Shown here one piece after another: positions 60,001 through 64,000 of a DNA stretch of 64,000 bases (the stretch's first letter is position 1; every line of letters starts with the position of its first letter). Made by a program: the position numbers. This DNA comes from an uncultured Candidatus Saccharibacteria bacterium (lineage in GTDB: Bacteria > Patescibacteriota > Saccharimonadia > Saccharimonadales > AWTP1-31). The stretch covers positions 1,036 to 65,035 of the forward strand of contig CAZHBD010000002.1 in assembly GCA_964530555.1 (NCBI GenBank), given 5' to 3'.

Positions 60001-63000
60001 CGTTTAGGTATGCACAAACAACACGACTGGCAAACCCACAGATTCGGTTGCGCAATTGTAGATCCAAAGCCAACTCAAGGGTATGAGATCCAGGAAGCGT
60101 TCGCACACCTTCTTCAAATATCTCAATTGGCAAACCTTCAATCAGATCAACCACAGTCATAAAAAAACTATACTAAATAATAGTATAGTTTTCAAGTCAA
60201 ATTGGAGGGCCATCATAGAATATGTAGCAACTAACTTATTTGCTCTTCAGGCTCTATAGGCGGAACAACAATAACTTCTCGTAATGGAATAATTGGGGGA
60301 TTTGGTCGAACCTTGATCGTCTTACATACTTCGCCTATACCGGCTTGTGCATTTGCCCACATTTCCATGTCTTCGGCTGCAGCGTCAAATCCTTCGCTTT
60401 CTGTCATGCCTATTCTCCTTTATGGAATTATACATTAAGAAACATAAACTCCTCAGACTGAGGAGCTTTAACATAACCGGGATTGGAGGGCATCGTGGAG
60501 ATTGATAGAATAAAAAGTTTGCCGTGCTACACTTAACTTTGAATAATTCATGCCATATGAGTAAGCTAGTCGAAATTGCCGTTCCACAATATAAGTTTAA
60601 TAACGACTTAAACCTAGAGTCCGTAAGTAAGGCTATTGATTACCATCTTCTTGCCAACTTTAAAGGCAAAAAAGTTGTCATTAGAGGCATACAGTCGGCG
60701 AAGCATACTTTACCCAAGAATAAGCTAATTCAGCAGATCATCGACACGGGAGTAGACCGCTACGAAGAAGGCAGTAAAAATGAAGTAAAAGTTACGGATA
60801 AGCCAGTTGATCTTTTTGGCTATGCATGCACACTTGGAAAACGTCCAGTAGTATTACCTATTTTGGAAGGTTTCCATAAATGGAAGCCTAAATCTTTAGA
60901 ACGTCCTCAAAGTCGGGTTGATATTTGGATGATCTATGATGTAAGTCAACTCCAAAATATTGAGTATACTCACAAACTTTATAACGTAAAAGCCAAGGAT
61001 GGGTATATCTTTTTGGATTCAGGCCAAAAAGAAACTGCCTTACTTGGCGTAATCGTAATTAAGTAGAAACTCCTTTTGGGGGGGGCAGGAGGAAACGCGC
61101 TACTGCGCTCGTTCTCGGAATGTATTCCTGTGAGCGAGCTTGTCGACCGAACCCTCGACTTGCATCTACTAAAGTAGCTGCGTCTCGGGTAAGACCCTAC
61201 TCACCATTGAAAAGCCCCCAGGCAAGCTGAGGTCATTTCAATGGAGGGCCTTCGTAGAACTTATCGCAACTAAATTCCAGTTCCAACCTGCTCAGTAACT
61301 TCGGCAACCCTGTTTCCGTATCCCCACTCATTGTCAAACCATGCTTGGATGTTGATGTGAGTTCCCTCACCGGAGTGAAATGCCGTAACTCGTTTAGGGT
61401 CAATAAGTGAAGAAACACTTTTTCCAAGAACTTTTTCTAAAAACATACCTCCAGAACTTATCCCAATTATGCCTTCGTGGCTACCCGCCGCTGCTTCCTG
61501 GAGGATTTCCACAATATCCCTTGCACTAAAATGCCCCAAAACCCCCAAGGTTAGCATAGCAACGCTACCGTCTGGAATGTTAATGCGCAGGCTTTCTGCG
61601 TTAAAAAATTGAAGTTCCGGAAATAGTCTATGTACTTCTTTTGCCGACCCGGTCGATGCAGGCAATACTGATGCTAAGCCCCGGCGACTACTTACGTCTT
61701 TGCCACGCCCGTCTAACGGTCGCTGCGAATTAGTAAACGCATGTGTAATCTTAGCATTTCCCCATCTAACATTTGCTTGATCACTAATAACCTTAACAAT
61801 TGGTGCAATACAGTTTGTGCTACAAGATGATACTGCAACAACATCTTCGATAGCATTAATATTGGCTTCGCTATCATTAACTCCACGCACAATCGTCGGG
61901 ATTGAATCATCTCGTGCAGGTGCAGTAATAACAACACGTTTTGCCCCAGATTCAAGGTGCCCTTGAACTGCTTGTCGAGTCAGGTATTGACCAGTGGATT
62001 CAACTACCACCAATCTGTCACTTAACTGTCCCCAAGGTGCTTCTTGAGGATTCCTAAAGCTGTGGATTGCAATCTCTCTGTGATCGACAACAATACAGCC
62101 ATCGGCTTCTGCAACACTATGCCCGACAAAATCTCTGTGCACCTGATCGAATTCAAGGCGAGCTGCTGCATCATGAACATCCGCGTCACCGCCTACATTC
62201 AAAGCCAAAACATCCAAGCCTTCTGAATCAATAGCTATTCGGCTATATACCATGCCTATACGACCAAATCCATTAACAGCTGTCTCTACGCTCATATCTT
62301 AAATACTAACCTTTGTGTCGATAACCAAGCAAGCATAAGAAAAACTCCTCTGGATGAGGAGTCTAAGCATAACCGGATTGGGGGGCATCGTGGACGTTGT
62401 CGCGACTAATTTTATGCTGAATCGAGTTTAGTAACAAGTTCTTTATAAGATTCTTCGATTGTTCCGTCTGTATGAATTATTATTCTTTCATCTTTCCATG
62501 GCTGATACTCGGTTTCCCTAACTTGTACATGGTCCCACGAGATTTCTTTCATACCAGGAATATTACGAACTCGGTTCTCCACTCGTTGTTTGTGTAATAA
62601 ACGGTCTTTAGTCGCGCATTCAACAATCTCCAGCTGAATACCATGTTCTTTTGCTAGGTTACGCCAGATTTCCCTCGCCTCTTCTACAGGGTTAACGGCA
62701 TCAATAATCACGCACTTATTAAGTTTCAGCTGCTGGTTGGCAATAACTTTCAAAATGTTATATGCTGCTCTTCCCAAGTTATCATCGTTCTTTACGCCAC
62801 TGAGCTTCATTTCGCCCTCGATAGGATCAACAGATAACCAGAGTACATCCGTGTTCTCTGCATACATTTTTGAAAGTGTACTCTTCCCGGACCCAGGTAT
62901 ACCACTAAAGATTATGAGTCTTTTCATGCCTTAATGATATCAAAGAAAAACTCCTCAGGCTGAGGAGTTTAAGCATAACCGGGATTGGAGGTCGTTACAC

Positions 63001-64000
63001 CAACAAGTTCGCACCCATGCTCGAAGAACTCATTCGCTGGAGAGGTATCATTGGTAAAGATTTTGAGAGTAATAAAGAGGTAGAACGTCTGAACAGTAGT
63101 AGCTACATTCCTTAGGGGGTTAGCACAGTCTAGTCTATTAAATTCATCTCAACGAGTCGAGGCATGACATTGTGCTCGAATATAGAACCAAGCGGTACGC
63201 CGGTTGTATGGGTGTTAACCCACATTATCTCTTCAATCTCACTACTTGGAGCTGGCTCACCCTTAGCGTTTCTGACGAGGAACACCTTCATCTCGACAAC
63301 TTTACTTTCGTTACCAGCGGCTTCAGCGGTGAATGTGCCAATCTCTTCTAGGTCTTCCTCTACTACTTCGACCTGCACTTCTTCCATTAACTCACGAACA
63401 AGGGTAGCTTTTGCTGTCTCGTCGCCTTCAGGTTTACCACCTGGCCCTACAAATACATCTTTACCCTTAGTACGAGTCACTAAGAACTTACGGTCTTTAA
63501 TAAGAACACCACCTGATTTGAGTATGTCTGGGGCTTTTGTCATGGTGACAGTATATCAAAGAAAAAAGACTCCTCATCAGAGAAGTCCTATAGTGCTAAT
63601 GCTTGGAGGGCCATCTGGGACTCGAACCCAGGACACGCGGCTTAAGAGGCCGCTGCTCTAACCAGCTGAGCTAATGGCCCAAACTATTGGGACCGAAAAA
63701 TCTTACCATATTACCCCTGTAAAGACAATCAGTTTCTTATTTGGTTATGCTTGCGCTCGCTGGGTTTGTGGGTAGACTTATGAGTATGACCAATCCAACT
63801 AACTTTGAGTTCCGTCGAAAACATCTAAGCGTTCCCCATGAACCCAGACTTTTAGTCGCTGCGCAGGAACTGTGGGACGCACTGCCAGGTTCCGCCAAAA
63901 GCGACCTAGATCCACCAACGACTCATACCCCGTTAACTGATACGGAGCGATTATATATTGCAGCCGATGATGTCATGCTGTCGTTCTTCACAAGCCCCAA

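What the first reader, a model, noticed from the sequence alone, without database searches (positions are those of the whole stretch)
62928..63603. Each array repeat carries a terminator plus an extended -10 promoter placed for leaderless translation of the next cassette gene
Read in the direction of the minus-strand genes, every unit has four parts in order. First, a stop codon that is often supplied by the repeat itself (the CTA in …CAACTAA gives TAG for the 209-aa, 58-aa and GAPDH genes). Second, the tRNA-end-like core. Third, a hairpin terminator. Fourth, a TGnTATAcT-like extended -10 box 6-7 nt before the ATG with no Shine-Dalgarno sequence. Examples are TTTGATATACTGTCACC-ATG for NUDIX, TTGATATCATTAAGGC-ATG for the kinase and TAGTATTTAAGAT-ATG for GAPDH. 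The 58-aa ORF instead has TGTATAAT followed by an AAGGAG RBS. The repeat therefore acts as a portable insulator and expression module, so every cassette is transcribed on its own. Because the stop codon lies inside the recombination site, cassette boundaries would cut inside ORF ends, as happens with integron attC sites.
Basis: partly seen in the sequence, partly recalled or inferred. Interest (0 to 1): 0.7.

Follow-up and report, generated by a model that had tools for sequence, protein, structure and literature searches.

The report
Self-expressing gene cassettes behind tRNA-Lys
Behind a lysine tRNA gene of a Saccharibacteria (TM7) genome lies a row of single-gene cassettes, each bounded by a copy of the tRNA's end and each apparently carrying its own transcription stop and a promoter placed so that the mRNA would begin at the start codon; the same layout recurs in many related genomes, and I found no paper describing it.

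Summary
Downstream of tRNA-Lys(CTT) (63604-63680, minus strand) lies a 6.3-kb, low-GC array of about ten units (57263-63603). A typical unit has five parts in order:
- a TAG-containing arm (TAGTTGCAATAG-N2-TCYACGAT);
- a core identical to the tRNA 3' end (GGCCCTCCAA);
- a conserved TCCCGGTTATGYTT;
- a hairpin followed by a T run;
- TGnTAnnnT, six bases, then ATG.

The same module occurs in at least 10 Saccharibacteria species genomes and 16 metagenome contigs. The hairpin stems differ in sequence but keep their pairing. The extended -10 box sits exactly 6 nt before ATG in about three quarters of units, and the base before ATG is a pyrimidine in 31 of 32.

The interpretation as terminator plus leaderless promoter is well supported, with two corrections. 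First, this promoter geometry is the general gene-start style of the lineage (58 cases at 6 nt against about 3 at other spacings outside the arrays), so it is not special to the repeat. Second, cassette breakpoints map to the core, about 25 nt after the TAG, so ORF ends are not cut.

No recombinase was found in the window or recurrently near related arrays, so how cassettes move is unknown. I rate it a new variant of integron-like or tRNA-anchored cassette arrays.

The parts
63604..63680 (-). tRNA-Lys(CTT) with encoded CCA; the anchor of the array
   Evidence: ARAGORN; Rfam tRNA model, 68.5 bits
63566..63589 (-). U0 hairpin, followed by the T run at 63559-63565; predicted terminator of the tRNA transcript
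   Evidence: Terminator scan; -13.2 kcal/mol, z -3.26
63541..63558 (-). U0 extended -10 TGATATACT, 6-nt spacer GTCACC, then the ATG of the NUDIX gene
63130..63543 (-). NUDIX cassette gene (137 aa)
   Evidence: Pfam PF00293, E 4e-12
62995..63129 (+). C-terminal remnant of a reversed gene that abuts the U1 core
   Evidence: Read from the sequence (open frame ending ...SSSYIP*); inference, not tested further
62969..62994 (-). U1 core plus conserved 3' arm (CGACCTCCAATCCCGGTTATGCTTAA)
62943..62970 (-). U1 hairpin AAACTCCTCAGCCTGAGGAGTTT plus T run
   Evidence: -12.5 kcal/mol, z -3.62
62925..62942 (-). U1 extended -10 TGATATCAT, 6-nt spacer TAAGGC, then the ATG of the kinase
   Evidence: The start is validated: the P-loop lies at residues 8-15, the Pfam match starts at residue 4, and homologues are 168-173 aa
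62412..62927 (-). AAA_33 kinase cassette gene (171 aa)
   Evidence: Pfam PF13671, E 6e-17
62363..62409 (-). U2 arm-core-arm (TTAGTCGCGACAACGTCCACGATGCCCCCCAATCCGGTTATGCTTAG); its TAG is an in-frame second stop after the kinase TAA
62293..62364 (-). U2 hairpin (62342-62364); class-2 box TTTTTCTTATGCTTGC carrying a -35-like TTGCTT (62327-62332); 18-nt spacer; -10 TAGTAT (62303-62308); 7 nt; ATG
   Evidence: The same box occurs in L034, L070 and L080
61270..62295 (-). GAPDH-like cassette gene (341 aa); its stop is the TAG of the U3 arm
   Evidence: Pfam Gp_dh_N and Gp_dh_C
61204..61273 (-). U3 arm plus core (61239-61273), and a long hairpin (61204-61244) whose outer stem pairs CCATTGAAA with TTTCAATGG
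   Evidence: -20.3 kcal/mol, z -3.2
61076..61207 (-). tRNA-Lys-derived structured non-coding element occupying a cassette position
   Evidence: Covarying stems: 10 of 32 pairs are compensatory among 3 copies. Model R1 scores 130-152 bits on the three copies it was built from, 14.1 bits (E 0.82) on L062, and 22-25 bits on true tRNA-Lys genes. No Rfam hit
60524..61066 (+). Inverted cassette ORF (180 aa, no Pfam hit)
60405..60500 (-). U4: core and arm (60466-60500), hairpin (60446-60468), TGTATAAT (60427-60434), AAGGAG (60415-60420), ATG. This is the one unit with a leader and a Shine-Dalgarno (SD) sequence
60231..60407 (-). 58-aa ORF; its stop is the TAG of the U5 arm
60158..60234 (-). U5: arm plus core (60196-60234); A/T-rich hairpin (60161-60192) whose 3' half contains the -10 TATAGT (60167-60172); 6 T; ATG
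   Evidence: -13.1 kcal/mol, z -6.2
59531..60160 (-). 209-aa cassette ORF (no Pfam hit); its stop is the TAG of the U6 arm
59467..59534 (-). U6: full arm-core-arm (59485-59534) plus a weak hairpin and T run. It faces the 3' end of an inverted gene and may act as a bidirectional stop
   Evidence: z -1.2 only
58671..59465 (+). Inverted cassette ORF (264 aa) with its own TGCTATATT-N7-ATG at 58677
58575..58608 (-). U7: degenerate arm plus core (CAGTTGCAACATGTTCTAGGATGTCCTCCAAAAC)
57856..58224 (+). Inverted DUF805 cassette ORF
   Evidence: Pfam PF05656
57708..57775 (-). U8: core (57749-57775), TGCTACACT (57717-57725), 6 nt, ATG at 57710
57263..57296 (-). U9: degenerate terminal arm plus core. Its TAG is the stop of the 138/148-aa ORF. 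This is the distal end of the array, where GC rises back to 0.49-0.50

Best explanation
The finding covers the two tRNA-proximal units of a cassette array that is typical of Saccharibacteria (TM7).

Shown by sequence comparison:
- A tRNA-Lys gene is followed, always on its 3' side and in its orientation, by single-gene cassettes of 0.4-1.2 kb.
- The cassettes are separated by a repeat of about 55 nt. It has three pieces: a 5' arm TAGTTGCAATAG-N2-TCYACGAT, a 10-nt core GGCCCTCCAA identical to the tRNA's 3' end, and a 3' arm TCCCGGTTATGYTT.
- After the repeat come a hairpin flanked by an A run and a T run, then TGnTAnnnT, 6 nt, and ATG.

Inferred function:
- The hairpin plus T run is an intrinsic terminator that stops the tRNA or the preceding cassette transcript.
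- TGnTAnnnT is an extended -10 promoter that needs no -35 box. With the hexamer at -12 to -7, a 6-nt spacer puts +1 on the A of ATG, with a pyrimidine at -1. Each cassette would therefore be made as its own leaderless mRNA.
- A minority repeat variant instead supplies a -35-like TTGC, 16-18 nt before a gene-borne -10 box.
- The arm's TAG serves as a built-in or back-up stop codon.

This promoter type is the lineage's ordinary one; cassettes simply carry it.

Inferred, and less certain: cassettes are gained and lost by recombination within the core. The agent would be a recombinase encoded elsewhere, or RecA acting on DNA taken up by these naturally competent bacteria.
For: Anatomy in the window.

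The same module occurs in 10 Saccharibacteria/Patescibacteria species genomes and 16 metagenome contigs.

Orientation and side relative to tRNA-Lys are the same in all 7 loci that hold both a tRNA and array units.

About 33 of about 45 real units have TAnnnT 5-7 nt before an ATG that opens an ORF, mostly exactly 6 nt. In the alignment of 32 units, TG is present in 30 and a pyrimidine at -1 in 31.

Hairpins fold at -7.5 kcal/mol or better in 29 of 32 units, with at least five unrelated stem sequences and T runs.

Start codons are validated by homology. The kinase P-loop lies at residues 8-15 and its homologues are 168-173 aa. The GAPDH N-terminal domain match starts at residue 5.

The geometry matches leaderless 'group C' bacteria, whose Pribnow box lies 6-8 nt from the start (PMC6028130).

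Lineage-wide enrichment: TGnTAnnnT at 6 nt occurs 58 times against about 3 at other spacings outside units; in the window alone, 10 against about 2.

Breakpoints at the core: L061 and L092 are 99.98% identical for 4.9 kb starting at ggc|CCTCCAATCCCGG, but have different DNA upstream, which is the tRNA in L061. L097, L098 and L102 share one upstream cassette followed by three different downstream ones. L097 and L101 share one downstream cassette with different upstream ones.

The TAG at -25 from the core is the ORF's stop in 11 of about 27 junctions, plus 2 further window units (GAPDH-like and 58-aa genes) that the search pattern missed.
Against: - No transcript data exist for this organism, so transcription start sites and termination are inferred from sequence only.
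- No recombinase was found. None appears among about 58 window ORFs or in the L104 flanks, and no recombinase family appears among those matched by two or more of 125 ORFs from 23 related loci; families matched by only one ORF were not all listed. Only 320 nt upstream of the tRNA are available in the window.
- Several units are incomplete, and one uses a leader with a Shine-Dalgarno sequence.
- T runs often pair with the A run in folding, so the hairpins could act in both directions or serve another role.
- Selecting units by an exact 17-20-nt core biases the sample toward well-conserved copies.
Confidence: 0.7

Rival explanations
1. The repeats are only scars (attL/attR remnants) of successive integrations of ordinary integrase-carrying islands at tRNA-Lys that have since decayed. 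There is no dedicated cassette system. The terminator and promoter features are just the normal gene signals of whatever DNA was inserted.
For: Serial integration at a tRNA 3' end leaves partial tRNA copies, as described for tycheposon islands. The leaderless promoter type is general to the lineage. Degenerate units and a gene remnant exist in the window.
Against: Units are single genes of 0.4-1.2 kb. No integrase or integrase fragment appears among the families matched by two or more ORFs from 23 loci. The arms on both sides of the core, which are not tRNA sequence, are conserved across species whose own tRNA-Lys acceptor stems differ. The distance from the core to ATG is fixed at 58-68 nt. 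Random decay would not keep this.
Confidence: 0.12
2. Cassettes are exchanged without any site-specific recombinase. The 50-75-nt near-identical modules act as homology arms for RecA-mediated recombination of DNA taken up by natural transformation. This rivals only the acquisition step of the best explanation.
For: No recombinase was found near any array. Stretches such as GGCCCTCCAATCCCGGTTATGTTTAAACAGAGGTAATATGCCTCTGTTTTT are identical across six loci (L006, L097, L100; L101 differs by one base). ComEC-type competence genes occur in the related loci. That Saccharibacteria are naturally competent is my own knowledge and was not checked here.
Against: The strict conservation of TCCCGGTTATGYTT and of the TAGTTGCAATAG arm, neither needed for expression, suggests a protein-binding site. 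The mimicry of a tRNA 3' end is the hallmark of integrase targets. Breakpoints cluster in a stretch of about 25 nt.
Confidence: 0.25
3. The array is one long operon read from the tRNA promoter or an upstream promoter. The hairpins are RNA processing or stability elements, and the TAnnnT boxes are A/T-rich coincidences or translation enhancers rather than promoters.
For: Most cassettes share the tRNA's orientation. No transcript data are available.
Against: TG, the T and A of the hexamer, and a pyrimidine at -1 sit at fixed positions relative to ATG in about 30 independent units. The enrichment is confined to 6-7 nt spacing. Inverted cassettes carry the same box on their own strand (58677). There is no room for a Shine-Dalgarno sequence. 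Hairpins with T runs are the standard terminator form.
Confidence: 0.08
4. The hairpins are attC-like folded single-strand recombination sites, so this would be a true integron analogue, and they are terminators only incidentally.
For: Structure is conserved while sequence varies at a fixed place in every unit, as with attC sites.
Against: Hairpins are short and perfect, flanked by A and T runs, and lack extrahelical bases or GTTRRRY-type ends. Breakpoints lie upstream of the hairpin. The same arrangement follows tRNA-His, where there is no array.
Confidence: 0.05

Closest known systems
Integron cassette arrays (chromosomal or super-integrons)
   Same: Rows of mostly single-gene, mostly co-oriented cassettes, each ending in a recombination-site-like repeat. 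The cassette stop codon often lies in the repeat. Cargo is small accessory enzymes, and toxin-antitoxin pairs appear in a related contig.
   Different: No adjacent intI. The repeat is a direct copy of a tRNA 3' end with conserved arms, not an imperfect palindrome. The array is anchored at a tRNA gene instead of attI. Every cassette has its own promoter and terminator rather than depending on the Pc promoter.
Tandem accretion of integrative elements and integrase-less cis-mobilisable elements (CIMEs) at tRNA 3' ends, e.g. the tRNA-Lys(CTT) locus of Streptococcus agalactiae (from my own knowledge, not checked here)
   Same: Direct repeats of the tRNA-Lys 3' end bound units that lack their own recombinase. 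Newer units would lie next to the intact tRNA.
   Different: Units here are single genes with uniform, conserved arms, and they are spread over many species. No resident integrative element with an integrase was seen.
Tycheposon-shaped genomic islands of Prochlorococcus (bioRxiv 10.1101/2020.12.28.424599)
   Same: A streamlined genome whose flexible genes are concentrated next to tRNA genes and interspersed with partial tRNA copies.
   Different: Tycheposons carry tyrosine or serine recombinases and replication modules, with multi-gene cargo. Here there are no such genes and the units are single-gene.
Leaderless transcription units of GeneMarkS-2 'group C' bacteria such as Actinobacteria and Deinococcus (PMC6028130)
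   Same: A Pribnow box 6-8 nt before the start codon of first genes, with no Shine-Dalgarno sequence.
   Different: The lineage (Saccharibacteria) is not named in that paper's main text. Here the TG extension is nearly universal, and the promoter is fused directly to the preceding terminator's T run.
pdif modules of Acinetobacter plasmids (from my own knowledge)
   Same: Small gene modules bounded by recombination sites with no recombinase nearby, thought to use a host enzyme.
   Different: pdif sites are 28-bp XerC/XerD sites in alternating orientation. Here only TTATGYTTAAA faintly resembles an XerD arm, the repeats are direct, and no XerC-like arm is present.

Membership tests
Integron | intI tyrosine recombinase gene next to the array, with attI and the Pc promoter | tested here: not met
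   No recombinase Pfam hit among about 58 window ORFs, in the L104 flanks, or among families matched by two or more of 125 ORFs from 23 loci. Only 320 nt upstream of the tRNA are visible in the window.
Integron | attC sites: imperfect inverted repeats (R''-L''/L'-R') with a GTTRRRY core that fold with extrahelical bases | tested here: not met
   The repeat is a direct copy of the tRNA-Lys 3' end plus non-palindromic arms. GTTATGY fails the RRR rule. The hairpins are perfect stems with T runs.
Integron | Cassettes lack promoters and are expressed from Pc | tested here: not met
   TGnTAnnnT-N6-ATG lies in front of most cassettes. Promoter activity itself is not testable here.
tRNA-targeted integrative-element arrays (ICE/IME/CIME accretion, tycheposon islands) | Direct repeats of the tRNA 3' end bound each unit, on the 3' side of an intact tRNA | tested here: met
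   The arrangement holds in 7 of 7 loci that have both a tRNA and units.
tRNA-targeted integrative-element arrays (ICE/IME/CIME accretion, tycheposon islands) | At least some units carry the integrase that made the array | tested here: not met
   None was seen in the DNA available; whole genomes were not searchable.
Intrinsic (Rho-independent) terminator | G+C-containing hairpin immediately followed by a T run on the transcribed strand | tested here: met
   Termination itself is not testable with these tools.
Extended -10 promoter driving a leaderless mRNA | TGnTAnnnT with the hexamer 6-8 nt before the start codon, and no Shine-Dalgarno sequence | tested here: met
Extended -10 promoter driving a leaderless mRNA | The transcription start coincides with the A of ATG | not testable with these tools
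   Needs 5'-end mapping. Only indirect support is available: a pyrimidine at -1 in 31 of 32 units.
Xer-dependent dif/pdif modules | 28-bp site with inverted XerC and XerD arms around a 6-bp centre | tested here: not met
   By inspection of the consensus, only TTATGYTTAAA resembles an XerD arm, and no CATAA-type inverted arm lies upstream.

The most novel reading that the evidence does not exclude
Saccharibacteria possess a dedicated, phylum-wide gene-cassette system that is anchored at tRNA-Lys. Single genes are packaged with an att site of about 55 nt derived from the tRNA's 3' end and with a complete terminator plus leaderless-promoter unit. These cassettes are exchanged between species by a recombinase encoded away from the array, or by competence plus RecA. 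This would be a functional counterpart of the integron in ultra-small episymbionts. The arrays also hold non-coding cassettes made of a tRNA-Lys-derived structured RNA.
Probability: 0.4. Interest if true: 0.8.

Novelty: new variant of a known kind. Interest (0 to 1): 0.62.

Why it matters
Candidate Phyla Radiation (CPR) bacteria have tiny genomes and few recognised mobile elements. A conserved hotspot where accessory genes are swapped would explain part of their strain variation. The cargo seen here includes phosphotransferases, NUDIX hydrolases, lipases, WhiB-type regulators and toxin-antitoxin pairs.

There are also practical consequences:
- The leaderless architecture means that start-codon calls based on Shine-Dalgarno sequences go wrong in these genomes. 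The public annotation of the kinase here drops its P-loop.
- The compact 60-nt terminator-promoter module, and the array itself, are natural candidates for expression parts and neutral insertion sites in Saccharibacteria, which I understand to be genetically tractable now (own knowledge, not checked here).

Tried and rejected
- Exact-protein look-ups of the NUDIX, kinase and GAPDH-like proteins and of P0001 found no contig. The flank beyond the window end could therefore not be read.
- The single IMG/VR match (L106) lies inside a 314-aa ORF and is treated as chance. No match was found in phage or plasmid collections.
- Most of the 89 genome-scan hits were chance 17-mers in unrelated phyla and were ignored.
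- Kinase homologues in L107 and L114 are not in tRNA-Lys arrays, so they did not show the same cassette in another array. The contig of the closest homologue, P0002, had no DNA available.
- Literature searches found no description of these arrays or of leaderless mRNAs in Saccharibacteria. The Gracilibacteria 'hypervariable' paper concerns a protein repeat. The Nanosynbacter transcription-start paper (PMID 35975994) is not held.
- A Xer/dif reading and an attC reading were considered and rejected on site anatomy.
- My first hairpin-plus-T-run count (17 of 32) under-counts, because the T runs pair with the A runs in the fold.
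Full report
**What is in the window.** The window ends with a tRNA-Lys(CTT) gene on the minus strand (63604-63680). Read along the minus strand, the next 6.3 kb (down to about 57263) has a lower GC content (0.39-0.46) than the rest of the window (about 0.49). 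It also contains repeated copies of the tRNA's 3' end. GATGGCCCTCCAA with up to 2 mismatches gives 5 matches against 1.18 expected, and no shuffle reached 5. A second part of the repeat, CCTCCAATCCCGGYTAT, gives 4 matches against 0.18 expected. None of the other six tRNAs in the window has repeated ends.

**The units.** I count ten units, U0 to U9, where U0 is the tRNA itself. The cassettes between them encode:
- a NUDIX hydrolase, an AAA_33 kinase, a GAPDH-like protein, a 58-aa ORF, a 209-aa ORF and a 138/148-aa ORF on the minus strand;
- three inverted genes on the plus strand (180 aa, 264 aa, and a DUF805 protein);
- one non-coding structured element.

**Check of the observation.**
- NUDIX: hairpin 63566-63589, T run, TGATATACT (63550-63558), GTCACC, ATG.
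- Kinase: core CCTCCAATCCCGGTTATGCTTAA, hairpin 62948-62970, T run, TGATATCAT (62934-62942), TAAGGC, ATG.
- GAPDH-like: TAGTAT, then 7 nt, then ATG.
- 58-aa ORF: TGTATAAT followed by AAGGAG.
- The TAG inside TTAGTTG is the stop codon of the 209-aa, 58-aa and GAPDH-like genes. For the kinase it is an in-frame second stop (TAA AAT TAG).
- Six of seven hairpins fold at -12 to -20 kcal/mol with z-scores of -3.2 to -6.2; the one after the 209-aa gene is weak.

The statement that 'every unit has four parts' is too strong. U1 follows a remnant of a reversed gene and has no stop or arm. U3 is followed by the non-coding element. U7 and U9 are degenerate.

**Start codons.** The start codons next to the -10 boxes are supported by homology. 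The kinase P-loop lies at residues 8-15, the Pfam match begins at residue 4, and homologues are 168-173 aa long. The GAPDH N-terminal domain match begins at residue 5. The public annotation of this same protein (P0001: 100% identical, 151 aa, on a 65,705-nt NCBI contig) starts at an internal ATG and loses the P-loop. This shows how such starts are missed.

**Related sequences.** An exact-pattern scan of species-representative genomes returned mostly chance hits. All multi-copy or tRNA-linked hits, however, were Saccharibacteria/Patescibacteria metagenome-assembled genomes (10 loci). A longer pattern found 16 metagenome contigs. In these, the module recurs with striking regularity:

[TAGTTGCAATAG-N2-TCYACGAT] GGCCCTCCAA TCCCGGTTATGYTT AAAC-hairpin-TTTTT TGnTAnnnT N6 ATG

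The ATG lies 58-68 nt after CCTCCAA. Both tRNA-Lys(CTT) and tRNA-Lys(TTT) serve as anchors. In all seven loci that hold both a tRNA and units, the units lie on the tRNA's 3' side and in its orientation.

They are conserved.
- Of about 45 genuine units, about 33 have TAnnnT 5-7 nt (mostly exactly 6) before an ATG that opens an ORF.
- In the 32-unit alignment, TG precedes the hexamer in 30 units and the base before ATG is a pyrimidine in 31. Neither feature was imposed by my selection.
- With the hexamer at -12 to -7, a 6-nt spacer puts +1 on the A of ATG. Pyrimidine(-1)/purine(+1) is the usual initiation dinucleotide (established knowledge; compare).
- There is no room for a Shine-Dalgarno sequence.
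- The hairpins fall into at least five unrelated sequence classes: CAGAGG..CCTCTG, CTCCTC..GAGGAG, AGACGCGAAAGCGTCT, CAGAAGC..GCTTCTG and ACAGAGAC..GTCTCTGT. They occupy the same position, fold at -7.5 kcal/mol or better in 29 of 32 units, and are flanked by A and T runs.
- The same hairpin class precedes unrelated genes. The AGACGC class, for example, occurs in L012, L033, L034, L091 and L095. The module therefore behaves as a portable unit.
- A second repeat class...GAGGAGTTTTTCTTATGCTTGC, supplies a -35-like TTGC, 16-18 nt before a -10 box carried by the gene. It occurs in the window's GAPDH unit and in L034, L070 and L080.

**First correction: the promoter is not special to the repeat.** In the window, TGnTAnnnT before an ATG with a long ORF peaks at 6 nt (10 cases against about 2 at other spacings). 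It marks ordinary genes at 14279, 28362, 42320, 45813 and 47046, and the gene after tRNA-His at 24239, which also has a hairpin and a T run. Over 249 kb of Saccharibacteria DNA, outside array units, there are 58 cases at 6 nt and 17 at 7 nt against about 3 elsewhere. A row of small genes without any tRNA-like repeat (L107) has the same box in its 40-50-nt spacers. This is the 'group C' leaderless pattern known from Actinobacteria and Deinococcus (PMC6028130). I found no paper stating it for Saccharibacteria.

**Second correction: ORF ends are not cut.** L061 and L092/L094 are 99.98-100% identical for up to 4.9 kb beginning at ggc|CCTCCAATCCCGG. Upstream, L061 has the tRNA and L092 has other DNA. 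L097, L098 and L102 share one upstream cassette followed by three different downstream ones. L097 and L101 share a downstream cassette with different upstream ones. Breakpoints therefore lie in GGCCCTCCAA and the adjoining TCCCGGTTATGYTTAAAC, about 25 nt after the TAG. The TAG at -25 is the real stop in 11 of about 27 junctions with an upstream ORF, plus two further window units that the search pattern missed. Most other ORFs stop a little earlier. The arm thus acts as a built-in or back-up stop that belongs to the cassette's own 3' end.

**How cassettes move is open.**
- No recombinase domain was found in about 58 window ORFs.
- None was found in the 8.6 kb upstream of the tRNA in L104, where the neighbour is a histidine kinase.
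- No recombinase family appeared among those matched by two or more of 125 ORFs from 23 loci. That table listed only 25 of 132 families, so a single-copy recombinase cannot be excluded. The recurrent families were cargo-like: APH, GATase, Peptidase_S51, WhiB and small kinases.
- The module is absent from the phage, plasmid and IMG/VR collections, apart from one chance coding match.

Two stretches that are useless for expression, TCCCGGTTATGYTT and the TAGTTGCAATAG arm, are nevertheless nearly invariant. They stay so across species whose own tRNA-Lys acceptor stems differ. That argues for a protein-recognised recombination site, which favours a recombinase acting in trans. Homologous exchange between the near-identical modules after natural transformation remains a serious alternative.

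**Comparison with known systems.** The array works like an integron cassette array. It fails the integron's defining features: there is no adjacent intI, the repeats are not attC-type palindromes, and the cassettes have their own promoters. It shares the tRNA-end direct repeats of tandem integrative-element or CIME arrays and of tycheposon islands, but no unit carries an integrase, and the units are uniform single genes. I therefore class it as a new variant of a known kind. Eight literature searches found no description. The library is incomplete, so prior description cannot be excluded.

**Side finding.** At 61076-61207 (minus strand), a cassette position is occupied by a structured element rather than a gene.
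- It ends in the T stem, acceptor 3' strand and CCA of a tRNA-Lys. The type matches L070's tRNA, not the window's own.
- Its T loop carries an insertion of about 56 nt that forms three helices, and a long hairpin lies upstream.
- Two diverged copies in L070 and a weaker one in L062 show compensatory changes: 10 of 32 predicted pairs among three sequences.
- A covariance model built from the three copies scores them at 130-152 bits, the L062 copy at only 14.1 bits (E 0.82), and genuine tRNA-Lys genes at 22-25 bits.
- Rfam has no match, and single-sequence folding z-scores are modest.
- Its role is unknown.

Noticed in passing
window 61076-61207 (-); L070 4463-4594 and 7737-7868 (+); L062 1515-1630 (-): A structured element derived from tRNA-Lys occupies a cassette position. 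It has the T stem, acceptor 3' strand and CCA of a tRNA-Lys, an insertion of about 56 nt forming three helices in the T loop, and a long upstream hairpin with conserved internal G/A mismatches. The copies show compensatory changes. There is no Rfam family. It is always preceded by CCCTCCA and a long hairpin whose outer stem pairs CTCCAA with TTGGAG.
   Followed up: partly
window 62995-63129 (+): An open frame ending ...EVERLNSSSYIP* runs toward the NUDIX gene. It is cut off at its 5' side by the U1 core, so it looks like the remnant of an inverted cassette gene truncated at the recombination core.
   Followed up: no
window 62867 versus 62927 (-): The public (NCBI) protein for the kinase is 151 aa, starts at an internal ATG, and lacks the P-loop. 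The 171-aa form that starts at the leaderless ATG matches the homologues. This suggests systematic start-codon errors in annotations of this lineage.
   Followed up: partly
window 62329-62344 (-); L034, L070, L080: A second repeat subclass, TTTTTCTTATGCTTGC, follows the CTCCTC/GAGGAG hairpin. It appears to donate a -35 box (TTGCnn) 16-18 nt before a -10 box that is specific to the cassette.
   Followed up: partly
window 24239-24365 (-): tRNA-His is followed by a hairpin (GGCTCCCTTGAGGGAGTC), a T run, and TGTTATGCT-N6-ATG. This is the same compact terminator-promoter junction as at tRNA-Lys, but without any repeat array.
   Followed up: no
window 8180-15000: tRNA-Pro(CGG) is followed by a low-GC (0.39-0.44) island. 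It encodes a DUF488 protein, a type III restriction-modification pair (N6_N4 methylase at 9024-10664, ResIII helicase at 10667-13162), a serine hydrolase and a MazG-like protein. No tRNA-end repeats are present.
   Followed up: partly
window 49841-55600 (+): A 1919-aa protein with NHL/beta-propeller and FN3 repeats ends in a histidine-kinase ATPase domain. It lies just beyond the distal end of the array.
   Followed up: no
L107 8001-16348: A row of small accessory genes (kinase homologue, NUDIX, Peptidase_S66, acetyltransferase, GDSL lipases) is separated by spacers of only 30-50 nt. Each spacer holds TGnTAnnnT 6-8 nt before ATG, with no tRNA-like repeat and no hairpin. This may be a repeat-free or decayed form of the same kind of array.
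   Followed up: partly
contig of P0002 (Logan ERR5029655; no DNA available): The closest kinase homologue (77% identity) sits among RelB/YafQ, ParE and Phd/YoeB toxin-antitoxin pairs and a deaminase. This content is reminiscent of chromosomal integron arrays.
   Followed up: no
window 57105-57125 (-): TGGTATAGT, then 6 nt, then GTG opens an 86-aa ORF just past the array end. This is a leaderless-type junction with a GTG start.
   Followed up: no
L061 2320 versus L092 1071: Two contigs that are 99.98% identical for 4.9 kb diverge exactly at the tRNA-end core. One has the tRNA there, and the other has oppositely oriented genes. This is a strain-level insertion or deletion at the tRNA-proximal site.
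   Followed up: partly
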